Part shown: piece after piece, positions 1-9,067 of the stretch | How the letters are laid out: every line of letters begins with the position of its first letter | How positions within the stretch are numbered: position 1 is the stretch's first letter | Sequence record: PZ091942.1 | Strand: one strand, 5' to 3' | Length of the DNA: 64,000 nt | Source of the DNA: a phage | Made by a program: the position numbers and the translations under genes | Notes under the pieces: model-generated | Told to the model about the DNA's origin: nothing | The model's database searches: none | Seen by the model: only the letters and a program-made list of their open reading frames with translations

Positions 1-56
1 TTTATGCCCGTAAAACAAGGGGGTAGTAAGTTCTGATAACGACAGCCCAGCTACTT

Positions 57-443
57 TTGACATTGACTATTTATTATGAGGCAGGGAATCAGCCAACCGC
101 TTGCAAAGCATTAGTAGCGGATACCGTAATAAACAGAATGTCACAACGAAAACTGACTGCCGAGCAGGTTATAAAACAACGAAACCAGTTCGAGTGGATA
201 CCCGTCTTATTAAAGAAGGAGAAGCCTTTTAAACGTTATGTAAAGCTAATTCGTGATGATAATCCTCTGACGAAGAAGTCAATCAGAGAGAGCGAGCGGC
301 TTGCAAGGCGTGCACTGAAGAAAGATTATGTGCCTTTATACAGTGGTACATACTTTCAGAGTAAGAGCGAAGGGGTGCCAAAGTGGTATACCAATCCTAT
401 GTATTGTGGTGATTTAGTGTTCAATAATAGTGCCCGTGACTGA
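57..443 (+). CDS. SleB/CwlJ-like cell-wall hydrolase domain protein
   Basis: TIYYEA..VINR..QFEW pattern resembles SleB-type hydrolase family; in-frame stop at 27-29 so gene begins in window; start uncertain (TTG 57 or ATG 138). Confidence 0.45.
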   Translation: MTLTIYYEAGNQPTACKALVADTVINRMSQRKLTAEQVIKQRNQFEWIPVLLKKEKPFKRYVKLIRDDNPLTKKSIRESERLARRALKKDYVPLYSGTYFQSKSEGVPKWYTNPMYCGDLVFNNSARD

Positions 444-644
444 TTCATAGGTGCCAAGATTGACAAACTAAATTCCCTTATAAATCACCTACTTATGATT
501 TTCTCTGCAAAAAGTGGTAGTGATTCGGAACCAGAGGTAATGACTGTATATAGACCTCTGAAAATTATTGATAGAAATTAAGTTTAGAAATAATAAATTC
601 TAAATAATATTTCTTATAATATCTTACTTTAAGAGGATAAAGAT

Positions 645-950
645 ATGACTTTAGAGGTTTATAAGTTCCTTTTCGTACTCACTGTAACGATTTCTACTCT
701 AGGATTTATTATTTTAAGAAATAAATCAGCAAGCTGGAAGCGTCGTTACGAGTTCCTTCTTAAGCTAGAGGAAGACTTTAATGATGCTACTCGACTTAAG
801 CTGGCAAAGATGCAGGAGCAAATCGAAGCACGTAATGATCGTTTGGCTTCTTTGGGTTGGGAGATTAAGCGTATTCAAGATCTCAATAAGCAACTCACTG
901 AAGAAATTAAACGCCAGAATGAGGAAACAGGAGATGCGCTCAAAGGTTAA
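645..950 (+). CDS. membrane-anchored coiled-coil protein (hypothetical)
   Basis: ATG with AAGAGGA RBS after AT-rich region containing TATAAT (615-620); N-terminal hydrophobic helix then charged coiled-coil. Confidence 0.55.
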   Translation: MTLEVYKFLFVLTVTISTLGFIILRNKSASWKRRYEFLLKLEEDFNDATRLKLAKMQEQIEARNDRLASLGWEIKRIQDLNKQLTEEIKRQNEETGDALKG

Positions 951-1110
951 AATTACCATTGGCGACACCGTTCGCCTTGTTGGTGGAACTATTACAGGTG
1001 TTATTCGTCAGAGAACAATAATTGATGGTGTTCTCTGTTATCTTGTTCAGTGGAATGGTGAATCCTCTCCTTCCTTCGAACGTCGTACTGATTTGGTGTT
1101 AATCAAATGA
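934..1110 (+). CDS. small hypothetical protein
   Basis: In-frame ATG inside track ORF 781-1110, chosen to limit overlap with 645-950; product has GDTVRLVGG..CYLVQW small-domain pattern. Confidence 0.4.
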   Translation: MRSKVKITIGDTVRLVGGTITGVIRQRTIIDGVLCYLVQWNGESSPSFERRTDLVLIK

Positions 1111-1349
1111 AAGTGAATTTCGAAATCGTCCCAAAGACTAAACAAAAGACGTTAACTTTCGGTGATTTATCTAATGGGGACATCTTCAAGTTTAAAAATC
1201 CCGACGATGACACTTTTTTCTTGATGAAGGTGACATCTACATTTTCGTCGGCTATGAAGTTAAGCAGCACCTCTGACATACTCAAGGTTTCTGCGAACGC
1301 TGAAGTTGAAAAGTATGAATACAAAATTCTTATTGAGGGTAAGCAATGA
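1107..1349 (+). CDS. small hypothetical protein, GD-x-F paralog family
   Basis: ATGA overlap with upstream stop; shares L..GD(I/V)F(K/R) N-terminal motif with ORFs at 1346, 2596, 5174, 6816. Confidence 0.5.
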   Translation: MKVNFEIVPKTKQKTLTFGDLSNGDIFKFKNPDDDTFFLMKVTSTFSSAMKLSSTSDILKVSANAEVEKYEYKILIEGKQ

Positions 1350-1576
1350 AAATTAATCTCCCATCTTTAGTTGTTACTAAAAAGCTCAGCGATCTACGTC
1401 CGGGTGATGTATTCCGTCTACCAACTAATTCTGAACACCTCTATCTAAAGACAGACACCTGCCTGAATGATATGCATCGTGTGGTTGGTCTTCGTCAGGG
1501 AACACTATTCCAGTTACAGGAACATCATGAAGTTATCCCTGTATTTGATGTTCAAGTGACTAATATTGGTGGTTAA
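1346..1576 (+). CDS. small hypothetical protein, GD-x-F paralog family
   Basis: DLRPGDVFRLP ... LFQL..VIPV closely parallels ORF 6816-7067 (DMSPGDVFRATEYP ... LFRLEIDMVVIPV). Confidence 0.5.
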   Translation: MKINLPSLVVTKKLSDLRPGDVFRLPTNSEHLYLKTDTCLNDMHRVVGLRQGTLFQLQEHHEVIPVFDVQVTNIGG

Positions 1577-1885
1577 ATGATAAATCTCAATATCCGTAGA
1601 GGTTTTTACCCTAAAGTCTCCTTCCGTGCTCAACTGGAGCAGCTTTCTGGTGTAACTTTCTTAGAGTTTACTTACAGCTGTGGTCGAGACAATCCCGGTT
1701 TCACTGTCACAATTGAATCTGGTTGGTTTAATATGACCATTATGCCAGAGGATGTTAACAATGCCCTTCGTGGTATTAAGTCCGGCGGCCTAAACCTTTT
1801 AGCTCCCAAGGTGGGTGATGAACTTCTTGCTGTGATTCGTAATGGTGTGGATAAAACAGCTAAGATGGTTGAAGCCCTTAAGTAA
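1577..1885 (+). CDS. hypothetical protein
   Basis: ORF abutting previous stop, same strand and codon style as neighbours; followed by repeat element A. Confidence 0.5.
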   Translation: MINLNIRRGFYPKVSFRAQLEQLSGVTFLEFTYSCGRDNPGFTVTIESGWFNMTIMPEDVNNALRGIKSGGLNLLAPKVGDELLAVIRNGVDKTAKMVEALK

Positions 1886-1893
1886 CATCGACT

Positions 1894-2004
1894 TATAGCC
1901 CTTGTGCTTATCAGAGGGCTATGTGAGGATGTTCCTCAATTAACTATAATCTCAATGCCATATGGCTCACCGCTAGGGAGAGACTTGTCTCAAACATCCG
2001 GTGA
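1894..2004. repeat. conserved intergenic element, copy A
   Basis: TATAGCCCTTGTGCTTATCAGAGGGCTATGTGAG (31/33 identical to copy at 7072) plus downstream block with GCTAGGGAGAG and AACATCCG..GATAGA shared with copy B. Confidence 0.6.
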
Positions 2005-2188
2005 TAGACTAAAACCTGTTTAATTTTCGAATGGCATTCCGATATGTAGGGGTATGTATCGGTTTGGGATAGAGAACAATCTAGGGGTAGAGAGTTCTCG
2101 ACAGTTTGTACAAGCGGAAGCCTTAACGTGTAGGGCTTCCCTTTATATTAACTGGCAATCCTGCCTCCATTAACAAAGAGAGAACGTT

Positions 2189-2329
2189 ATGAAAAAGACA
2201 ACCAAACGTATGAACCGTCCTGAACGTATGGATGCAGTAGCAAATGGTGCTCTGAAGATTGAGTCTGCTATGCTTCGTCTGACAACTAACATCCGTAAAC
2301 GTCAAGGTGATTGGTTCTATGGCGGCTGA
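2189..2329 (+). CDS. small basic hypothetical protein (46 aa)
   Basis: ATG preceded by purine-rich AAAGAGAGAA; below 60-aa track cutoff; MKKTTKRMNRPERMDAV... Confidence 0.3.
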   Translation: MKKTTKRMNRPERMDAVANGALKIESAMLRLTTNIRKRQGDWFYGG

Positions 2330-2516
2330 GCATGATGTTGGTATTCGTGAGATTATTCGTCTTGCGATAATTGATCATCCTAACAGTCGCAATGGTCTGT
2401 TGTTACAGATCTCTAAATGTCTTAATTGCGATCGAGATGTAGCGAAAGAGCTGTTCTTTGCATTCCTTTATAATGCAGATGATCGCTTCTTGAATAACAA
2501 GTTGCGTAGTGCTTAA
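2319..2516 (+). CDS. hypothetical protein
   Basis: In-frame ATG of track ORF 2307-2516 (track start is GTG); followed by terminator. Confidence 0.4.
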   Translation: MAAEHDVGIREIIRLAIIDHPNSRNGLLLQISKCLNCDRDVAKELFFAFLYNADDRFLNNKLRSA

Positions 2517-2521
2517 TAAGA

Positions 2522-2552
2522 GGCTGCCCTTCGGGGTGGCCTTTGTTGTTTT
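2522..2552 (+). terminator. rho-independent terminator
   Basis: GGCTGCCC-TTCG-GGGTGGCC hairpin followed by TTTGTTGTTTT. Confidence 0.6.
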
Positions 2553-2595
2553 AATTAAGGGACAACTCTTACTTAAACTAACAAGAGAGGTTGAT

Positions 2596-2847
2596 ATGTT
2601 CAATCGTTTATTTGACCGTAAAGGTCGCACTGACATACTGATACCCTCTATCGGTGTGCCAGCTAAGTTCGGTGAGATACGTGCTGGTGATTTCTTCATG
2701 GAATCGGGGCGTCTTCATCTGAAGATCAACCTTGAACACGCCGTAGAAATCCTCAGTGATGATAAGCCAATCATCGGCACTTCGGTGTACAGTGCAAACC
2801 ATACTGTATTTGTTGTCAATGTTCAGATTGAGATTAAATCGCCATGA
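2596..2847 (+). CDS. small hypothetical protein, GD-x-F paralog family
   Basis: ATG with AGAGAGG RBS 5 nt upstream (track start 2509 rejected); GEIRAGDFFMESGRLHL motif. Confidence 0.5.
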   Translation: MFNRLFDRKGRTDILIPSIGVPAKFGEIRAGDFFMESGRLHLKINLEHAVEILSDDKPIIGTSVYSANHTVFVVNVQIEIKSP

Positions 2848-3101
2848 AGACAAACTTCCGAGCAGCAGTTATTACGAAAGTAATAGCAGTTGGTGATGTG
2901 ATGATGCAGGTTCCTCTGAACACTCGTTACATTGCCATTGATCGAATGGGTTACGTGTGGGCTTGGAAGTGGAAGCCTATCTATAATGAACTGTTCGATG
3001 AATACCAGTGCGCTGGGCCTTACATGCCAACGTTGGTTGGTGTGTATGAAGACGGTCCTTGTCGTACTCCTCAGTTAATTGAACTACCGGCGTGTGTTTA
3101 A
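2844..3101 (+). CDS. hypothetical protein
   Basis: ATGA start/stop overlap with upstream gene; 85-aa ORF. Confidence 0.5.
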   Translation: MKTNFRAAVITKVIAVGDVMMQVPLNTRYIAIDRMGYVWAWKWKPIYNELFDEYQCAGPYMPTLVGVYEDGPCRTPQLIELPACV

Positions 3102-3102
3102 T

Positions 3103-3264
3103 ATGATTAAGTGGCTAAAACGTGTCTTCCATTGTCATGATTGGAAGATTATTAACACCCGTCCTCTGGTCTATACAGATTCAGATGGGAACAATGACAA
3201 GGGCACACGTTACGTTATTCAGTGTAAGGTGTGTGGTGATGTTAGTCATCGTGATGTAATCTAA
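3103..3264 (+). CDS. small Cys/His-motif protein, tandem paralog 1
   Basis: ATG 3103 (track start 3079 is TTG); KWLKRVFHCHDW ... QCKVCG shared with next two ORFs. Confidence 0.45.
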   Translation: MIKWLKRVFHCHDWKIINTRPLVYTDSDGNNDKGTRYVIQCKVCGDVSHRDVI

Positions 3265-3273
3265 GGAATCATT

Positions 3274-3438
3274 ATGATTAAATGGTTCAAACGTCTATTT
3301 CATTTCCATGAGTGGGAAGATCTTCATACTTATGAACTGACGATCACAAATAAACTTACTGACAGAGAGCGACAAGGGTTGCGTATCTACTCTCGCTGTA
3401 AAGTGTGTGGTCTGCACAAGAAAACAGACCTGATTTAA
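3274..3438 (+). CDS. small Cys/His-motif protein, tandem paralog 2 (54 aa, not in ORF track)
   Basis: ATG after AAGGAA; MIKWFKRLFHFHEW ... RCKVCGLHKK; below track length cutoff. Confidence 0.45.
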   Translation: MIKWFKRLFHFHEWEDLHTYELTITNKLTDRERQGLRIYSRCKVCGLHKKTDLI

Positions 3439-3447
3439 GGGGGTGTT

Positions 3448-3657
3448 ATGTTCTTTCGTAAGAAAAAGCCCGAAGATTCTGGATGTAAACATGAGTGGGT
3501 GATCACTGAAAACTTACATATCACTCACGCTAAAGACACTCCAGCTGAAGCGAAAGAGTCTCGTGTATCTCGTGTCTGTAAACGCTGTTTGAAAATAGAA
3601 CAGCACAAAGTCCCCGGTCATATCTATCACGATGTGGCCTTGCGTATCTTCAGTTAA
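3448..3657 (+). CDS. small Cys/His-motif protein, tandem paralog 3
   Basis: ATG after GGGGG; CKHEW ... VCKRCLK motif. Confidence 0.45.
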   Translation: MFFRKKKPEDSGCKHEWVITENLHITHAKDTPAEAKESRVSRVCKRCLKIEQHKVPGHIYHDVALRIFS

Positions 3658-3675
3658 ATAAATCCAGAGGTTAAT

Positions 3676-3984
3676 GTGAAACAAAAGCATTTTATCATCT
3701 CAACCTTACTACTAATGACAACCATTGGTATCATCTCTGTTAATAGTGCAGAGATTGGAGTTAAGTATCAGAGTGTTCAGCAATGCACTCTTAAAGAGCA
3801 TAGCTTAACTGGTATCAAAGAATCTCATGGTATGGTAAGAGATGGGCTTCTGTTTGTAGAAACAACTTCTGGTAATCGTGTCATGGCTATTGATGGCAAA
3901 GAAACAAAGTATGCCTACTTCCCTGATACAACAGGCTATTACACTTTTGAAGATAAGGATTGTAAGAAGTCTTTCTCTTTATAA
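3676..3984 (+). CDS. secreted hypothetical protein (signal peptide)
   Basis: GTG start with GAGG RBS; N-terminal hydrophobic signal-like segment LLLMTTIGIISVNSA. Confidence 0.45.
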   Translation: MKQKHFIISTLLLMTTIGIISVNSAEIGVKYQSVQQCTLKEHSLTGIKESHGMVRDGLLFVETTSGNRVMAIDGKETKYAYFPDTTGYYTFEDKDCKKSFSL

Positions 3985-3993
3985 ACAATTCAA

Positions 3994-4069
3994 GCACCCT
4001 TAGCTCAATGGATAGAGCAGCGACCTTCTAAGTCGTTGGTTACAGGTTCGAGTCCTGTAGGGTGCACCA
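3994..4069 (+). tRNA. tRNA-Arg (anticodon UCU)
   Basis: Cloverleaf read by eye: acceptor GCACCCT/AGGGTGC, D-arm GCTC-AATGGATA-GAGC, anticodon stem GCGAC/GTCGT with loop CTTCTAA, T-arm ACAGG-TTCGAGT-CCTGT, encoded CCA. Confidence 0.85.
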
Positions 4070-4087
4070 ATCAACGTAGGAGGGATC

Positions 4088-4414
4088 ATGAGCTGGGGTG
4101 GTGTAATTACCTTAACCTGTATCTTTATCGCCTGTGTAGCTCTTACAGGCTGCGTACAGCATCGTCCTGATGGATGGTGTGCATTATCGGTAGAAGGTGT
4201 CTGTGTTTCCCGTTGGCATAGCGGGGAGAAGATTCCTAGTGGTGAAATTGATATGCGTTATGCTGGTGCTTCTTGTTCCAATGGCGGTGCTGTTGACGAG
4301 AAGGCTTATGCAAAGCGTGATATGGCTACCCAAGGTGATTGGTCACGTTATGACTTCATCTCCCGTGGTGAGCTGTGTGGTGGTTCTGTGACAACAACAG
4401 GTAAGGAGTGGTGA
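4088..4414 (+). CDS. lipoprotein (signal peptide with lipobox LTGC)
   Basis: AGGAGG RBS 5 nt upstream of ATG; hydrophobic N-terminus ending VALTGC; Cys-rich mature region. Confidence 0.65.
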   Translation: MSWGGVITLTCIFIACVALTGCVQHRPDGWCALSVEGVCVSRWHSGEKIPSGEIDMRYAGASCSNGGAVDEKAYAKRDMATQGDWSRYDFISRGELCGGSVTTTGKEW

Positions 4415-4415
4415 T

Positions 4416-4670
4416 ATGTCTGGTCATTATTCTGATACGAAATCTCTGATTGAAACAGCGGCTCAGACTTCATGCCAACAGCAAGTAAGTATGTTGTTGG
4501 TTGATATTCGCAATCTACGCTGGCTTATCAAAGAAGGTCATCTTGGAAACGCTGCCTATTACAACGTTAAAGATATCCTTCGCCGCCAGCACTTTCTTAT
4601 CCACGGAAACGTGGTCACTCGCAACTATCAATGGAACGGTCAATGGTTACAGCAGCGTATGTCCTCCTGA
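4416..4670 (+). CDS. hypothetical protein
   Basis: ATG 2 nt after upstream stop; 84-aa ORF. Confidence 0.45.
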   Translation: MSGHYSDTKSLIETAAQTSCQQQVSMLLVDIRNLRWLIKEGHLGNAAYYNVKDILRRQHFLIHGNVVTRNYQWNGQWLQQRMSS

Positions 4671-4897
4671 TTTATGTTATAGGTTGGTGGTTAGCAGCCA
4701 TCGCAGTTAAGTGGTGCTTCAAAACCCATACATTCTACAACTTCTTCCATTCCTCATGGAGCGGTAAGCCTGATGAATATTCTATTTGGATGGTGATATT
4801 CTTCTGGCCTTTTATTCTGATCACTATCTTACTATTACCTTTCTTTATGTTAATAGGCTGGTTGTTGGATAAGGTGACAGCCTTTGTTACTAAGTAA
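4631..4897 (+). CDS. small membrane protein (2 predicted TM helices)
   Basis: Hydrophobic segments AAYVLLIYVIGWWLAAIAV and MVIFFWPFILITILLLPFFMLIGWLL; start may be the downstream ATG at 4643. Confidence 0.45.
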   Translation: MERSMVTAAYVLLIYVIGWWLAAIAVKWCFKTHTFYNFFHSSWSGKPDEYSIWMVIFFWPFILITILLLPFFMLIGWLLDKVTAFVTK

Positions 4898-4906
4898 TAT
4901 CGTGAA

Positions 4907-4930
4907 GGATTCTTACGAGAGTCCTTTGAG
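4907..4930 (+). terminator. terminator-like hairpin
   Basis: GGATTCT-TACG-AGAGTCC hairpin then TTTGAG directly after stop of 4631-4897. Confidence 0.4.
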
Positions 4931-5173
4931 ATAGGACTTCAGATCTCCTATCAACTAACCGCTCAATGTTGAGCATTTTAATCACATAAGCCCCTTAAGG
5001 GCTGGGTTTAATGCCGGTAAGCGTTTTACGCTATCCACTACAGCATCGGATTGTTAGGTCTTACATGCAATATTAATCAATAGGATATGGGAGGATTCGT
5101 CCCCTCCCCCTATTTATGAAAGCATTCTTCCGAGAGTTCTCTCATAAATTGGTCCATAACTAAAGGTGGTTAA

Positions 5174-5428
5174 ATGAAAGTTAACAAACCAGCAGGTAAG
5201 AGTGCAATACCTCTCAGTGCTTTGCGACTTGGGGATTGCTTCATGTACCCTAACAGTGAAGATGGTGATTTGTACATCTTATTATCTACCGAGTTCTCCA
5301 CTCGACTGTGCATCAAGGGCGCGGACGAGCACAGACTTGTAGCCTGTCTTAACACAGGCCGAGCGACAGCGCCTCGTAAAGATGTTGCTGTTATTCCTAT
5401 CAAAGCTGAAGCAACTATTAAGGAGTAA
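5174..5428 (+). CDS. small hypothetical protein, GD-x-F paralog family
   Basis: LSALRLGDCFMYPNSEDGDLY motif; first gene after a 270-nt structured intergenic region. Confidence 0.5.
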   Translation: MKVNKPAGKSAIPLSALRLGDCFMYPNSEDGDLYILLSTEFSTRLCIKGADEHRLVACLNTGRATAPRKDVAVIPIKAEATIKE

Positions 5429-5431
5429 GCA

Positions 5432-5695
5432 ATGGCTCTGACCATTAACAAAACTCGTATTGCGGATATTCCTCTAATGGTGGCAGGTGTTTCTATCGGC
5501 TCTTTCTTTACTTTGAAAGAAGATAAAGAACAAACCATTTACATGAAAGTAAACAAAAGCTCTAATGGTTGTGAATACCACCGAGCTGTGTCGATGCAGA
5601 GTGGATATGTTCGTAATATGGCATCCAATATGCCAGTTGGTGTTGTGTTTGAATCGGCAACTCTGGATTTAGTGGAGAAGATTAGTGAGACGTAA
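5432..5695 (+). CDS. small hypothetical protein
   Basis: Tightly coupled to 5174-5428; similar size and layout to the paralog family. Confidence 0.45.
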   Translation: MALTINKTRIADIPLMVAGVSIGSFFTLKEDKEQTIYMKVNKSSNGCEYHRAVSMQSGYVRNMASNMPVGVVFESATLDLVEKISET

Positions 5696-5942
5696 AGATC
5701 ATCCGAAGTATGTATCACTACTGGATGCAGTCCTTCTCTGCACATATTGGCTCCTCATTGTCGTTGGGGCTGTGCTGATGGTATGTGGTGTCGTACAGTT
5801 CTTTATGTATCTGCAAAGCGTGTTAGATATCACATTAGCTAACACTATAATCCTTGCAACTCTCGGTATTATTGCTTTCTGTGTGATTGTCTTCTTCGTT
5901 TGGTTATCTATGAACGACGACTCTACACACACCTTCTATTGA
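5685..5942 (+). CDS. small membrane protein
   Basis: Two long hydrophobic helices (LLDAVLLCTYWLLIVVGAVLMVCGVV; IILATLGIIAFCVIVFFVWL). Confidence 0.45.
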   Translation: MRRKDHPKYVSLLDAVLLCTYWLLIVVGAVLMVCGVVQFFMYLQSVLDITLANTIILATLGIIAFCVIVFFVWLSMNDDSTHTFY

Positions 5943-6140
5943 CAGGAGAAAATCAGTGAGAAAACGTGCCTACTCTGAAGAAGAAATGGTTAACTTGAAA
6001 GGCTTCGGTCAACGACAGCCTGACGGTTCAGTTATCTGGTACATTAACGGACAGAAAAAGGCAAGTAAATAAGCCCTCTTCTCTCCTCCCTTTAGCTACT
6101 ATGACGCCTCTCTTTTCGGCGCTGTTTTGGAGCTTCAAAA

Positions 6141-6554
6141 ATGTCTGGGAAATTCCCCAACGTAAGCAAGAAATTGGCTTACCTCACGTATAAAGAAAAC
6201 ATTGATCTTCTGGTCAAACTTTATCCGGCTTCATTCAACAAGCAATTCCCTCTTCCTTTGGAGCTTAACATCCATAAGGAGATCGCCCGTAAGACCGGTT
6301 GGTCAGCGGAGAAAACAAGCATGGTGCTCAACATCTGGACTACTCGTATGGAGTATGTGATGATGGCCTGTAGCACTGGTAAACGCTTCAAGCTGCACTC
6401 TGTAGCTATGAAGATCCGTAGTCCTATTGACCCTGAGCCAATGGCTGGGTTCAGCAGCCGTCTGAAATCTTTCCGTGATCGTGGTCGTGTAGTGAAGTTT
6501 AAGCACGACTTCTCTTATAAGTTTGGATACGAAGCGTTCCAATTCGTTGTTTAA
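6141..6554 (+). CDS. ProQ/FinO-domain-like RNA-binding protein (putative)
   Basis: LYPASFNKQFPLPLELNIHKEIARKTG...MVLNIWTTRMEYVMMACSTGKRFKLHS resembles the ProQ/FinO fold signature. Confidence 0.45.
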   Translation: MSGKFPNVSKKLAYLTYKENIDLLVKLYPASFNKQFPLPLELNIHKEIARKTGWSAEKTSMVLNIWTTRMEYVMMACSTGKRFKLHSVAMKIRSPIDPEPMAGFSSRLKSFRDRGRVVKFKHDFSYKFGYEAFQFVV

Positions 6555-6582
6555 TCTCTCTTTAATATAAGGTAATAAAAAC

Positions 6583-6816
6583 ATGTCTAAAGTTAGCGCA
6601 ATTGATGCCATCCGTCAGCCGTTCCAGTTTCAGTCCAAGTCAACTCAGACCCAAAGTGAACCGCGTCAGATTCGTCTGGGTGGTACAGAGAAGTCTGTGT
6701 TTGATATTGCGAAAAACAAAAGCGTAACCATCGTCGAAGGTGGTGAGCTGGTTAATGTTTCCCATCGTATCCGCACTGGCAAAACTGCCAAAGATCGTGC
6801 TAAGAAAGGTCTGTAA
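6583..6816 (+). CDS. hypothetical protein
   Basis: ATG preceded by AAGGTAATAAA, the same leader seen upstream of 28774. Confidence 0.45.
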   Translation: MSKVSAIDAIRQPFQFQSKSTQTQSEPRQIRLGGTEKSVFDIAKNKSVTIVEGGELVNVSHRIRTGKTAKDRAKKGL

Positions 6817-7067
6817 TGCAAATTGCTAATAAAACCCCTCCTGAATCAATTACCCAAGTAAAGGATATGTCACCGGGAGATGTATTTCGTGCAACGGAAT
6901 ATCCGGGGGATTTCTTTATTCGAATCCCCTCAGCATCTGTTGGTGGCATCGCTAAACCGGTAACAGCAGTTCAGCTAAGTACGGGTCATCTCTTCCGTTT
7001 AGAGATTGATATGGTTGTGATTCCTGTTCCAACAGCAATCCTCCGCTTCGACGGAGCCACAGAGTAA
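6816..7067 (+). CDS. small hypothetical protein, GD-x-F paralog family
   Basis: Paralog of 1346-1576; followed by repeat element B. Confidence 0.5.
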   Translation: MQIANKTPPESITQVKDMSPGDVFRATEYPGDFFIRIPSASVGGIAKPVTAVQLSTGHLFRLEIDMVVIPVPTAILRFDGATE

Positions 7068-7071
7068 CATC

Positions 7072-7200
7072 TATAGCCCTTGTGAGTATCAGAGGGCTAT
7101 GTGAGCTATTCTGGCTCAACTAACCTAAACTTAATTTAATCTTACCCGTATGGGGCCGATGCTAGGGAGAGGAACAGTCCTCGAACATCCGTCGGATAGA
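7072..7200. repeat. conserved intergenic element, copy B
   Basis: TATAGCCCTTGTGAGTATCAGAGGGCTATGTGAG plus GCTAGGGAGAG block; internal hairpin GAGGA-ACAG-TCCTC covaries with GAGAC-TT-GTCTC in copy A. Confidence 0.6.
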
Positions 7201-7308
7201 ATATTTTAAGAGCAGGTTATCCACAGATATTGGGTGATATCTATTTAATTGGCCTTAAAGCTTGGCTCTCTTAGGAGAGTCCTTTTTTAAGTTCAAAGAA
7301 GAGGTTGT

Positions 7309-7476
7309 ATGGATAATAAGTTGAAAGTTAAGTTCTTATTGGCAGCAATCTTTATTTGCTTAGCCACCGTGGGGTTTGCCCGTGTGACTTCCTTTGTATC
7401 TTGTGAATTAAGCAAGAACAACAGAGGGTCTTATAACTGGCTTACCAATCAATGTGATAAACAGGAGAAGTTATGA
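7309..7476 (+). CDS. small secreted/membrane protein (55 aa, not in ORF track)
   Basis: ATG after GAAGAGG; hydrophobic N-terminus KFLLAAIFICLATVGFA; stop overlaps ATG of next gene (ATGA). Confidence 0.35.
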   Translation: MDNKLKVKFLLAAIFICLATVGFARVTSFVSCELSKNNRGSYNWLTNQCDKQEKL

Positions 7477-7835
7477 ACCTACGCCCCATCAAAGGCCATG
7501 TGAACCTGTCTACGCTGCATAAAGTAGCAAATGATCTGGGTGGCATGGACGAGAATGATTTGGAGCAGCAATTGCTCTGGATTGCTCATGGCATCAAGGC
7601 GGCAAAGGCCAAAATGGCTCGTGCACAAAGCAAGTTAAAGGCGAATAAATATCTTATTCGTCGTCGTAATACCTTACCTCAGGATGTGGTGAGTTTGGCT
7701 GTGGCAGGATACAATGCAGCAGAGGTAGAACTTCAGGAAGCAGAATTCGAAAAAATGCGCTTCCAAGAAAACTACCGAAACTTCCGTAGCATTGCCTACA
7801 TTCGCAAATCTCTGGGCCTTCTGGTAGCAGAGTAA
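7473..7835 (+). CDS. hypothetical protein
   Basis: 120-aa ORF, translationally coupled to upstream small ORF. Confidence 0.5.
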   Translation: MNLRPIKGHVNLSTLHKVANDLGGMDENDLEQQLLWIAHGIKAAKAKMARAQSKLKANKYLIRRRNTLPQDVVSLAVAGYNAAEVELQEAEFEKMRFQENYRNFRSIAYIRKSLGLLVAE

Positions 7836-7846
7836 AGAGGTAAAAG

Positions 7847-9067
7847 ATGTTCCCTGTAACACTTCAAAGCTGGAAAGAATCAGAAGATGTTGTAACCGTC
7901 TGGCCTCCTTGTTATGGTTTCCTTAAAGCAGGTTACTATCAGGGTGGTGATTATGATGAAGATGATGAAGACGATGATCCTGACTACTACAACACGTATG
8001 ACAGCAACTACGGCTGGAATATCCGCATCAAGGTGTGGAGTAAAAATATGATGGTTCGTCAAGGCACTGCTGAAGAGAACGTTCTTGAGAATATGTTGCC
8101 TATGTCTGAAATCAAGTATATCTGGAACTCCGGAACACATCTTCCAGCTTACGGTGTAAGACGTTATGGTGATACTGAATATATCGCTACTCAGTATTTC
8201 CGTGAAGGGTTAGAAAATGAAGACCCTCGTCCTCCTTCTCATGTGGAAACATGGGCAGAAGAAAACAACCGTCCTGATATCACTGATCGTGTTGTTATGG
8301 AAACCTTTGCAGCATTCATGGATAAAGATCTTGACTCATGTCTGGTGTGGCATGAAGTAGGGTTCATGGGTGTTTGCACTGATGGCTGTCCCGCTGATCG
8401 TGCTCTGTTCTATCTGATGTTGAATCGCACATTCTATACAGATGATGAAAAATCTGCTGTGTATGAAATGTTGAACAAGATGTATAAGAAGGGCTGGTCT
8501 CCTTTAGCCTCTCTTGCATTCAGCCGACTTATCAACTCTTCAGTGGATGTATTCGGTAACGAACGTGTTGCTTTAACAGGGAATGATTACGATTCCTGTA
8601 TCTTCCAAGCATCTCTGTATACAGTGGGTGTTGGTAGTACGATGATTGAGCCTCGCCAGACCAAATGGCGACAGTGTGAATACACTGAAGGTGAAGGCCA
8701 CCTGCGTGATGAAGACTTCTCCAGTCTGATCTATCGCAGTGAAGGTGTTCGTGATTGTCGAGTGAACAACTCGATGTTCTTGCCAATCCTTTTGCCTCAA
8801 TATTGCCATCTGTCAGAAGATACCCGCCCAATCATCACAGAAAAGTCACTCTTGGTTGAATTTATCCGAGAGGTGACTGAATCTGAAACATCTTTTGCTA
8901 AAATTGTGTTCGGTTATAACTGGAACAATGAAACAGCTTCAGCTCGAAGCTACAACATGTATAACATTATCAGTAGTATGTCCAATGGACTAACAGGTAG
9001 TAATTATACAGTACGTCCCTCAGAAGAGTGGGAAAACATTTTGGAAAAATTATTCTTCAATAAATAG
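7847..9067 (+). CDS. hypothetical protein (first gene of candidate modification operon)
   Basis: ATG with AAAGAGG RBS; 406 aa with acidic DYDEDDEDDDPDYY stretch; no recognisable motif. Confidence 0.55.
   Translation: MFPVTLQSWKESEDVVTVWPPCYGFLKAGYYQGGDYDEDDEDDDPDYYNTYDSNYGWNIRIKVWSKNMMVRQGTAEENVLENMLPMSEIKYIWNSGTHLPAYGVRRYGDTEYIATQYFREGLENEDPRPPSHVETWAEENNRPDITDRVVMETFAAFMDKDLDSCLVWHEVGFMGVCTDGCPADRALFYLMLNRTFYTDDEKSAVYEMLNKMYKKGWSPLASLAFSRLINSSVDVFGNERVALTGNDYDSCIFQASLYTVGVGSTMIEPRQTKWRQCEYTEGEGHLRDEDFSSLIYRSEGVRDCRVNNSMFLPILLPQYCHLSEDTRPIITEKSLLVEFIREVTESETSFAKIVFGYNWNNETASARSYNMYNIISSMSNGLTGSNYTVRPSEEWENILEKLFFNK

What the first reader, a model, noticed from the sequence alone, without database searches (positions are those of the whole stretch)
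1107..7067. Family of at least five paralogous small ORFs sharing an L..GD(V/I)F motif
ORFs at 1107-1349, 1346-1576, 2596-2847, 5174-5428 and 6816-7067 (76-84 aa) share an N-terminal motif around (R/S)(P/L/N/A)GD(V/I/C/F)F and in the best pair (1346 and 6816) a C-terminal LF(Q/R)L...VIPV block. 5432-5695 and 934-1110 may be distant members. Such expanded small-protein families in phage early regions often encode host take-over or anti-defence factors.
Basis: seen in the sequence. Interest (0 to 1): 0.45.

Follow-up and report, generated by a model that had tools for sequence, protein, structure and literature searches.

The report
Expanded small beta-barrel phage protein family
Six small early genes of this ECBP2-like coliphage are true, selectively maintained paralogues of one widespread but uncharacterised phage protein family with an SH3-like beta-barrel fold; what they do is unknown, most plausibly binding host factors early in infection.

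Summary
The five listed ORFs, plus 5432-5695, form one protein family: pairwise z-scores reach 10.4 against shuffles, leave-one-out HMMs give E of 1e-11 to 6e-5, and a profile built only from outside homologues gives E of 2e-19 to 4e-14. ORF 2596 is a divergent member (E 1.2e-5). ORFs 934-1110 and 2844-3101 are not members.

The window is an ECBP2-like Suseptimavirus (Gordonclarkvirinae), and the genes lie in its early region.

- **Selection:** all six copies are under purifying selection (dN/dS 0.05-0.29).
- **Fold:** AlphaFold gives a five-stranded SH3-like barrel (pLDDT 81). The nearest solved folds are ribosomal L2 C-domain and EF-P domain I, at fold level only.
- **Known families:** no Pfam, NCBIfam or PADLOC model matches. 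The matching PHROGs are all "unknown function".
- **Spread:** at least 179 clusters in a 1.8-billion-protein library, including phage N4 gp21.
- **Copy number:** 5-7 in Suseptimavirus, 9 in phiEco32, 11 in a Kuravirus-like contig. There is also a tandem array in an unrelated 151-kb phage, and natural 2-5-domain fusions exist.

The conserved positions are mostly buried hydrophobic and turn residues, while one hairpin loop varies from 5 to 28 residues. Function is untested. My best inference, at low confidence, is a diversified early-expressed binder scaffold for host take-over or anti-defence.

The parts
1107..1349 (+). Family member, 80 aa. It is the accessory copy: present in the window, ECBP2 and PAS59, and absent from SU7, EK010, Bas87 and Bas88. 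Its start overlaps the stop of ORF 934-1110.
   Evidence: Outside-only profile E 4.3e-14. Leave-one-out E 5.5e-5. Matches phrog_10911 with cross-hits to 9955, 6570 and 7832. dN/dS 0.29. Presence and absence.
1346..1576 (+). Family member, 76 aa. It is the most typical copy and the hub of the pairwise similarities. It is translationally coupled to 1107-1349 (ATGA overlap).
   Evidence: Outside-only profile E 2e-19. Leave-one-out E 1.3e-11. AlphaFold model has pLDDT 80.6 and a five-stranded barrel. dN/dS 0.24.
2596..2847 (+). Divergent family member, 83 aa. The GD.F turn and the C-terminal strands are kept, while the middle deviates. I prefer the ATG at 2596, which has a GAGAGG Shine-Dalgarno sequence, over the upstream GTG at 2509, because a terminator-like hairpin at 2519-2544 lies inside the longer reading.
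   Evidence: z=7.0 against 1346. Outside-only profile E 1.2e-5, in two pieces. Leave-one-out only E 0.1. Matches phrog_22099. 98-100% conserved among Suseptimavirus, dN/dS 0.05. Hairpin.
5174..5428 (+). Family member, 84 aa. It is the first gene after a roughly 275-bp structured intergenic region and forms a tandem pair with 5432-5695.
   Evidence: Outside-only profile E 2.1e-14. z=10.4 against 1346. Matches phrog_7832. dN/dS 0.05. Intergenic sequence.
5432..5695 (+).
   Evidence: Outside-only profile E 3.7e-14. Leave-one-out E 5.6e-6. Matches phrog_12612. dN/dS 0.16.
6816..7067 (+). Family member, 83 aa. Its start overlaps the stop of the highly conserved ORF 6583-6816. Its orthologues are the most divergent within the genus (60-100% identity).
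   Evidence: Outside-only profile E 4.4e-16. Leave-one-out E 1.5e-5. Matches phrog_6570. dN/dS 0.21. Identities.

Best explanation
**Shown.** The six ORFs are anciently diverged paralogues (16-34% identity). They belong to one widespread, uncharacterised family of phage proteins of about 75 aa. Each is a single autonomous five-stranded SH3-like beta-barrel with this signature: MKI, then 8-10 residues, [FL]x[DE]LxxGD[VC]F, 6-10 residues, [LI][YF][MIL]K, a variable loop of 5-28 residues, AVxLxxG, about 10 residues, Vx[PK]V, and a final ExxI-type strand. All six are real genes kept by purifying selection. The family repeatedly amplifies in tandem, and its repertoire turns over between related phages.

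**Inferred.** The genes are expressed from the early transcription units of this ECBP2-like podophage. Each copy acts as a small binding module. The conserved residues build the barrel, while the variable beta2-beta3 hairpin and the surface strands give each paralogue its own partner. The partners are most likely host proteins, either take-over targets or immune sensors and effectors, which are bound and blocked or redirected in the first minutes of infection.

The existence and fold of the family are near certain. The binder and host-target mechanism is a hypothesis.
For: **Family is real:**

**Coding and functional:** dN/dS is 0.05-0.29 across seven Suseptimavirus genomes. The genes have Shine-Dalgarno sequences or coupled starts.

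**Fold:**
- The AlphaFold model of 1346 has pLDDT 80.6 with five strands.
- The family profile also picks up a protein with 11 bacterial SH3 repeats.
- A natural two-domain fusion folds as two such barrels, pLDDT 82.9, without a fixed interface, pTM 0.53. This shows the domain is an autonomous module.

**Scaffold plus variable loop:** most high-information columns are buried hydrophobic or turn residues (F23, G20, V63, G52, L17, L49, V47). The segment between K35 and V46 ranges from 5 to 28 residues.

**Not a general nucleic-acid binder or DNA mimic by charge:** pI is 5.2-8.5 and net charge at pH 7 runs from about -2.4 to +1.6.

**Accessory, fast turnover:**
- Copy number is 5-7 in Suseptimavirus, 9 in phiEco32, 11 in a Kuravirus-like contig and 1 in N4.
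- Window copies are at most 40% identical to, or undetectable by BLAST in, phiEco32. Neighbouring genes that do have a phiEco32 match are mostly 41-91% identical.
- One slot holds a family member in ECBP2 and Bas88 but a DUF7247 gene in the window.

**Recurrent tandem amplification elsewhere:** a 151-kb viral contig carries 5 copies within 2 kb, and fused proteins with 2-5 domains exist.

**Early-region setting:** synteny with the phiEco32 early cluster and published descriptions of that cluster (PMC8948821, PMC4281155, PMC9965538).

**Context:** Gordonclarkvirinae are reported as remarkably resistant to restriction-modification and other defence systems, with no known inhibitor (PMC11990801).
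Against: - No experiment or homology links any member to a partner, to toxicity or to a defence system.
- The fold is generic, and the Foldseek PDB search gave no hit at E<=1e-3.
- Several polar positions are conserved family-wide (D16, D21, K35, N45, D60, E70). That would fit one shared ligand or activity better than many different targets.
- Two copies (2596 and 5174) are 90-100% conserved within the genus with dN/dS 0.05. That looks like housekeeping constraint, not an arms race.
- Early expression is inferred from phiEco32 synteny and was not measured for this phage.
- The resistance of these phages to restriction-modification has a competing published explanation, a possible DNA modification (PMC11990801).
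Confidence: 0.4

Rival explanations
1. The proteins are RNA-, ribosome- or DNA-binding modules. On this reading the barrel is a relative of the translation-protein SH3-like domains (EF-P/eIF5A domain I, ribosomal L2 C-domain, KOW), and the paralogues tune translation or transcription of host or phage messages.
For: The top structural neighbours in two independent searches are the L2 C-domain, EF-P domain I and eIF5A. The only PDB sequence-profile hit is EF-P domain I, aligned over the GD.F strand through the xLxxG turn. KOW and Tudor-like domains also appear.
Against: - The EF-P hit is not significant (E 0.33).
- No Pfam EFP_N, KOW or Ribosomal_L2_C match appears at E<=1.
- The loop that carries the functional Lys/Arg in EF-P is the hypervariable segment here.
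- The proteins are near neutral rather than basic.
Confidence: 0.15
2. The paralogues work together rather than separately. Neighbouring copies (1107+1346, 5174+5432) would assemble into hetero-oligomers that form one multi-domain machine or adaptor. The clue is that the same domains are fused into one polypeptide in other phages.
For: Natural fusions of 2-5 domains exist. The copies lie in tandem and are translationally coupled in the window and in phiEco32, where gp95-98 and gp113-115 form runs.
Against: - The predicted two-domain protein shows no confident fixed interface (pTM 0.53 with pLDDT 83).
- The partner copy 1107 is missing from four of seven Suseptimavirus genomes while 1346 stays.
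- Adjacent copies are not each other's closest relatives.
Confidence: 0.15
3. The proteins serve a phage-internal function, for example as replication or transcription accessory factors or as assembly chaperones, and are not directed at the host. The expansion would then reflect subfunctionalisation.
For: There is strong purifying selection and near-invariance of 2596 and 5174 within the genus. Five copies are present in every Suseptimavirus genome examined. Polar positions are conserved family-wide.
Against: The repertoire is not conserved between sister genera that share the same replication and morphogenesis genes. Copy number ranges from 1 to 11. The genes sit among the early genes, not in the replication or structural modules.
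Confidence: 0.15
4. The similarity is chance or compositional, or the ORFs are not genes.
For: The ORFs are short and pairwise identity is low (16-34%). ORF 2596 is only marginal in the window-only leave-one-out test.
Against: The shuffle, leave-one-out and outside-profile statistics argue against chance. So do dN/dS well below 1, a confident common fold, and 179 homologous clusters in public data.
Confidence: 0.01

Closest known systems
Phage N4 gp21, together with PHROG families 7832, 6570, 7431, 8365, 12612, 9955, 16423, 10911, 34455 and 22099 (all annotated 'unknown function')
   Same: This is the same sequence family. The family profile hits N4 gp21 at E 1.8e-16, and Foldseek matches it at E 8e-5 with TM 0.74. 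The window copies cross-hit several of these PHROGs.
   Different: N4 carries one copy, and it lies among genes 17-23 rather than in the leftmost early block. This phage carries six, and its relatives carry up to eleven. None of these entries has a known function, so they give a name but no mechanism. PHROGs splits the family into about ten separate groups.
Translation-protein SH3-like domains: EF-P / eIF5A domain I and the ribosomal protein L2 C-terminal domain
   Different: There is no significant sequence relationship (E 0.33). No Pfam match was found. The functional loop of EF-P is not conserved here, and the proteins lack basic character. The window proteins are stand-alone 75-aa proteins, not parts of translation factors.
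Bacterial SH3 domains (Pfam SH3_3) of cell-wall hydrolases
   Same: The family profile accumulates E 6.8e-13 over 8 repeats of an endolysin with 11 SH3_3 domains. Both are small beta-barrels with an LxxG..[FV] strand-turn-strand.
   Different: No window protein reaches SH3_3 in Pfam, even at E<=1. The window proteins have no catalytic partner domain. They are encoded among early genes and not in the lysis module.
phiEco32 gp79, a small protein of the same phage group that binds host RNA polymerase (inhibits sigma-70 transcription, activates gp36)
   Same: It is a small protein (82 aa) of the leftward early/middle gene block in the same phage lineage that acts by binding a host machine (PMC12276001, PMC8948821). 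It is a working example of what an early small binder does.
   Different: It is not a family member. The profile detects neither phi32_79 in the phiEco32 locus nor anything outside the six ORFs in the window.
Tudor/SH3-like RNA-polymerase-binding domains (CarD N-domain, UvrD/PcrA C-terminal domain)
   Different: The similarity is only at fold level, with 8-20% identity. There is no evidence of RNA polymerase binding here.

Membership tests
N4 gp21-like small beta-barrel family (PHROGs 7832/6570/12612 and others; no Pfam entry) | Significant match to a family profile built without the sequence being tested | tested here: met
   The outside-only profile gives E 2e-19 to 4e-14 for five copies and 1.2e-5 for 2596. 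The next ORF scores E 1.2.
N4 gp21-like small beta-barrel family (PHROGs 7832/6570/12612 and others; no Pfam entry) | Single domain of about 70-90 aa carrying the signature [FL]x[DE]LxxGDxF ... [YF][MIL]K ... VxLxxG ... VxPV | tested here: met
   Deviations: 5432 has GSFF, 2596 lacks the second Gly turn, and 1107 lacks the VxPV motif.
N4 gp21-like small beta-barrel family (PHROGs 7832/6570/12612 and others; no Pfam entry) | Five-stranded SH3-like barrel | tested here: met
   AlphaFold model of 1346, pLDDT 80.6. Both domains of the fused relative P0026, pLDDT 82.9. The other five window copies were not modelled individually.
EF-P / eIF5A domain I (Pfam EFP_N; translation-protein SH3-like) | Sequence-profile membership | tested here: not met
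   No Pfam hit at E<=1. The family profile against PDB gives EF-P domain I at E 0.33 only.
EF-P / eIF5A domain I (Pfam EFP_N; translation-protein SH3-like) | Conserved basic residue at the tip of the beta3-beta4 loop (the modified Lys or Arg) | tested here: not met
   The aligned segment is the hypervariable loop of 5-28 residues, with no conserved Lys or Arg.
EF-P / eIF5A domain I (Pfam EFP_N; translation-protein SH3-like) | Fold similarity | tested here: met
Bacterial SH3 domain (Pfam SH3_3) | Pfam model match at or near the gathering score | tested here: not met
   No SH3_3 hit for any window copy at E<=1, nor for 74 family members at E<=0.01. The only link is a reverse, cumulative hit on an 11-repeat protein.
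Known anti-defence proteins (AntiDefenseFinder set) | Match to a catalogued anti-defence family | tested here: not met
   In the BASEL supplement, the only AntiDefenseFinder entry seen in the retrieved passages for each of Bas86-88 is a Tad2/AcrIIA7-like gene (Bas8x_0021/22), not the family orthologues. PADLOC, NCBIfam and Pfam give nothing. AntiDefenseFinder itself could not be run here.
Host take-over or anti-defence factor (functional class) | Demonstrated binding or inhibition of a host target, or a phenotype on deletion or expression | not testable with these tools
   This needs wet-lab work. No paper describing these genes was found.
Early-expressed gene class of phiEco32-like phages | Location in the early cluster transcribed by host sigma-70 polymerase | tested here: inconclusive
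   Synteny with the phiEco32 region spanning gp89-gp117 and published class assignments for phiEco32, SU10 and YF01 (PMC8948821, PMC4281155, PMC9965538) place the genes in the early cluster. No expression data exist for this phage, and the promoter scan of 1-8000 found fewer sigma-70-like sites than shuffled sequence.

The most novel reading that the evidence does not exclude
The family is a modular, rapidly re-assorting binder scaffold that virulent phages amplify to build an arsenal, with each copy neutralising a different host immune or stress protein. If so, the 5-11 copies in Gordonclarkvirinae would contribute to that group's unexplained broad resistance to restriction-modification and other defence systems. 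The family would then define a new, widespread class of anti-defence proteins.
Probability: 0.12. Interest if true: 0.75.

Novelty: new variant of a known kind. Interest (0 to 1): 0.4.

Why it matters
Most early genes of virulent phages have no known function, so this result mainly organises unknowns. It merges about ten "unknown function" PHROGs, N4 gp21, nine phiEco32 genes and at least 179 metagenomic clusters into one family. That family has a defined fold, a sequence signature and a clear evolutionary behaviour: tandem amplification, fusion and turnover.

It also yields a short, testable candidate list. Six genes here have orthologues in the publicly available BASEL phages Bas86-88. They are candidates for an open question, namely why Gordonclarkvirinae resist nearly every defence system tested although no inhibitor is known (PMC11990801).

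If the proteins are binders with distinct targets, they would be useful probes of host physiology, and the family would merit a new Pfam entry. If they turn out to be dispensable or phage-internal, the finding is an ordinary lineage-specific gene family.

Tried and rejected
- **Library searches.** Pfam, NCBIfam and PADLOC scans of the six proteins gave nothing. A Pfam scan of 74 family members gave nothing meaningful.
- **Word-indexed protein search.** It returned only close orthologues, as did single-sequence tblastn against the phage collection.
- **Context searches.** The search for related loci failed with the 74-sequence alignment because no stretch was conserved enough. With a 5-sequence alignment it returned one locus, so no systematic survey of contexts was possible.
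- **AlphaFold database.** The afdb50 fold library was unavailable.
- **Membership of 934-1110 and 2844-3101.** Rejected: hhalign probability 0.7% and 3.4%, and no HMM hit.
- **EF-P mimic idea.** Considered because EF-P domain I came up in three searches. Rejected as a membership claim because E is 0.33, the functional loop is not conserved and the charge is neutral.
- **Fixed interface between fused domains.** Considered as support for hetero-oligomers. Not supported: pTM 0.53.
- **PaP3 gp70.1.** This RpoS-binding early protein was followed up because PaP3 ORF.65 appeared in the structure hits. It is an unrelated 131-aa protein.
- **Phage T4.** The first 50 kb has no member at E<0.03. The rest of T4 was not searched.
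- **Literature.** Searches for phiEco32 early genes, SU7, Gordonclarkvirinae, N4 gp21 and small SH3-like early proteins found no description of this family.
- **SU7 promoter annotation.** The promoter annotated upstream of the 5174 orthologue overlaps the ribosome-binding site and is not convincing.

Full report
**What the window is.** The region 900-7200 is 95% identical over 95% of its length to Escherichia phage ECBP2, and 91-95% identical to about twenty other coliphages: SU7, EK010, MLP3, PAS59 and BASEL Bas86-88. These are prolate podoviruses of the subfamily Gordonclarkvirinae, genus Suseptimavirus. All genes in the first 38 kb of the window are on the + strand. The finding lies in a run of small genes upstream of the amidoligase/GlmS-like cluster and the replication genes. 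That run is syntenic with the phiEco32 region spanning gp89-gp117. Published work puts this region in the early class and calls its genes hypothetical, with a presumed role in host take-over (PMC8948821; PMC4281155; PMC9965538).

**Checking the observation.** The five ORFs are present as described and carry the motif.
- Against 300 residue shuffles, local alignment scores to ORF 1346 stand at z=10.4 (5174), 8.1 (6816), 7.0 (2596), 5.8 (5432) and 4.7 (1107).
- An HMM built from five members recovers the sixth as the best non-training hit among 626 six-frame ORFs every time. E-values are 1e-11 to 6e-5, except 2596 at E 0.1. Unrelated ORFs never score better than E of about 0.3.
- A profile made only of 68 homologues from public data finds exactly these six ORFs in the whole 64 kb: E 2e-19 to 4e-14, 2596 at 1.2e-5, next ORF at 1.2.
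- ORF 5432-5695 is therefore a full member, and 2596 is a divergent one.
- ORFs 934-1110 and 2844-3101 are not supported.
- The bare motif G[DS][VICF]F occurs 10 times in the window against 3.0 +/- 1.7 expected, and seven of the hits are in the six ORFs.

**They are real genes.** Four have good Shine-Dalgarno sequences, and three have starts that overlap the upstream stop codon. Across seven Suseptimavirus genomes, orthologue comparisons give dN/dS of 0.29 (1107), 0.24 (1346), 0.05 (2596), 0.05 (5174), 0.16 (5432) and 0.21 (6816), with dS up to 1.8. That is clear purifying selection.

**What the protein is.**
- AlphaFold2 on the six-sequence alignment gives a confident model of ORF 1346: pLDDT 80.6, pTM 0.65, five beta-strands.
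- Foldseek against the PDB gives no hit at E<=1e-3, with the same L2, EF-P and eIF5A domains on top.
- The family profile against all PDB sequences yields only EF-P domain I at a non-significant E of 0.33.
- No Pfam, NCBIfam or PADLOC model matches.
- In PHROGs the six copies fall into six different groups. Five of the six also cross-hit other family PHROGs (7832, 6570, 9955, 16423, 12612, 7431), while 2596 matches only phrog_22099. All are annotated "unknown function".
- Among predicted viral structures the matches are uncharacterised proteins of ECBP2, NJ01, 172-1, EP335, SU7, N4 (gp21), Paul, Myduc, Cronus, Hera and others.

**How wide the family is.** An exhaustive HMMER scan of 1.84 billion cluster representatives finds 179 proteins at E<=1e-3.
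- Nearly all are 68-90 aa.
- About two dozen are longer, with two to five copies of the domain in one chain.
- Two further long hits (P0016, P0031) are unrelated cell-surface proteins. One of them is an endolysin with 11 bacterial SH3 repeats.

A 74-sequence alignment gives the signature MKI ... [FL]x[DE]LxxGD[VC]F ... [LI][YF][MIL]K ... AVxLxxG ... Vx[PK]V ... ExxI. Most of the strongly conserved columns are hydrophobic or turn residues. A few polar positions are also conserved (D16, D21, K35, N45, D60, E70). The segment between the third and fourth conserved blocks varies from 5 to 28 residues. The proteins are near neutral: pI 5.2-8.5 in the window, family median 6.0. A natural two-domain member is predicted as two such barrels (pLDDT 82.9) with no confident mutual orientation (pTM 0.53). 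The domain is therefore an independent module.

**Evolutionary behaviour.**

| Genome or contig | Family copies |
|---|---|
| SU7, EK010, Bas87 | 5 each |
| Window, Bas88 | 6 each |
| ECBP2, PAS59 | 7 each |
| phiEco32 (gp95-98, 104, 109, 113-115) | 9 |
| Kuravirus-like metagenomic contig, 20 kb | 11 |
| N4 (gp21) | 1 |

- Five copies (1346, 2596, 5174, 5432, 6816) are present in every Suseptimavirus genome examined.
- The 1107 type comes and goes.
- A seventh type (ECBP2_0109, Bas88_0104) occupies the slot where the window has an unrelated DUF7247 gene at 1577-1885.
- Between genera the window copies are at most 40% identical to any phiEco32 copy, or undetectable by BLAST. Neighbouring genes that do have a phiEco32 match are mostly 41-91% identical.
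- An unrelated 151-kb viral contig carries five copies in tandem within about 2 kb, one of them split into two ORFs.
- Adjacent copies in the window are not each other's nearest relatives, so the duplications are old.

**Interpretation.** The shown facts are these: one family, a known fold class, real genes, an autonomous module, a conserved core with a hypervariable loop, recurrent amplification and fusion, and repertoire turnover in an early-gene region. From them I infer that the copies are small binding modules with different partners, most likely host proteins engaged early in infection.

The conserved polar positions and the near-invariance of two copies within the genus argue for a more uniform, possibly phage-internal, role.

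Rival readings are weaker but not excluded: RNA or ribosome binding suggested by the EF-P/L2 resemblance, hetero-oligomers suggested by the fusions, and a phage-internal function.

The BASEL study reports that Gordonclarkvirinae are remarkably resistant to restriction-modification systems and to nearly all other defences tested, without any known inhibitor. The authors suggest a DNA modification (PMC11990801). Their AntiDefenseFinder run flags only an unrelated Tad2/AcrIIA7-like gene in Bas86-88. The family is thus an unlisted candidate, no more.

**Novelty and verdict.** I found no paper that describes this family or its expansion. Databases hold the members only as scattered "unknown function" groups. 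The fold and the phenomenon, a lineage-specific family of small early phage proteins, are both familiar. I therefore rate this as a new sequence family within a known kind, of moderate interest. It is a solid, correct observation that provides a defined family and a short list of testable candidates, but no mechanism yet.

Noticed in passing
window 3079-3264, 3274-3438, 3448-3657 (+): A second paralogous family of three adjacent small ORFs (61, 54 and 69 aa). 3079 against 3274 gives z=17.7, and both match phrog_8294 (unknown function). 3448 is more distant: z of 4.2 to 3274 and 3.0 to 3079, and it was not scanned against PHROGs. All three share a pattern like [CH]xH[DE]W ... CxxC, which suggests a small zinc-ribbon-like protein.
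   Followed up: partly
window 1577-1885 (+): A 102-aa DUF7247 protein (Pfam E 6e-12) sits in the slot where ECBP2 (ECBP2_0109) and Bas88 (Bas88_0104) carry a seventh member of the beta-barrel family. EK010 has the DUF7247-sized gene, like the window. This looks like a gene-replacement hotspot directly after ORF 1346.
   Followed up: partly
window 6583-6816 (+): This 77-aa ORF is 91% identical to phiEco32 gp93. That is far more conserved than every other small early gene around it, which are 0-65% identical. Its stop overlaps the start of family member 6816. It may be the unusually conserved early hypothetical protein mentioned in PMC9965538.
   Followed up: no
window 2519-2544 (+): A strong terminator-like hairpin (11-bp stem, 6 G-C pairs, T-run) lies just upstream of ORF 2596. 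It falls inside the longer reading of that gene annotated in SU7 (103 aa), so the shorter ATG start at 2596 is the more likely one.
   Followed up: partly
window 4898-5173: A roughly 275-bp non-coding gap before ORF 5174 contains several hairpins, including a terminator-like one at 5089-5108. It may separate two transcription units. The promoter annotated in SU7 at the equivalent place overlaps the ribosome-binding site and is not convincing.
   Followed up: partly
window 3994-4069 (+): A tRNA-Arg (anticodon TCT) is embedded among the early genes, as in ECBP2, SU7 and phiEco32.
   Followed up: no
L017 8340-10432 (IMGVR_UViG_3300028797_000104, 151-kb contig): An unrelated large phage carries a tandem array of five family copies within about 2 kb. 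One copy is split into two adjacent ORFs holding the N- and C-terminal halves, which could be a pseudogene or a sequencing error.
   Followed up: partly
L012 646-3315 (ENA ERZ27297473 k141_3020333, 3.4-kb contig): A 387-aa protein made of five fused copies of the domain lies directly downstream of a gene with WGR and PARP (poly-ADP-ribose polymerase) domains. The contig is too short to judge its origin.
   Followed up: no
L013 10001-10930 (JGI 3300033067 contig, 73 kb): A 309-aa protein has three copies of the domain followed by a Cys-rich C-terminal segment (CHMC ... CKYC), possibly a zinc-binding tail. It has no Pfam match.
   Followed up: no
window 934-1110 (+): This 58-aa ORF (KITIGDTVRLVGG...) is not a family member by any profile test. 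It has no PHROG or Pfam match and no homologue in phiEco32. Its sequence pattern is reminiscent of KOW- or Tudor-like mini-barrels, but this was not tested.
   Followed up: partly
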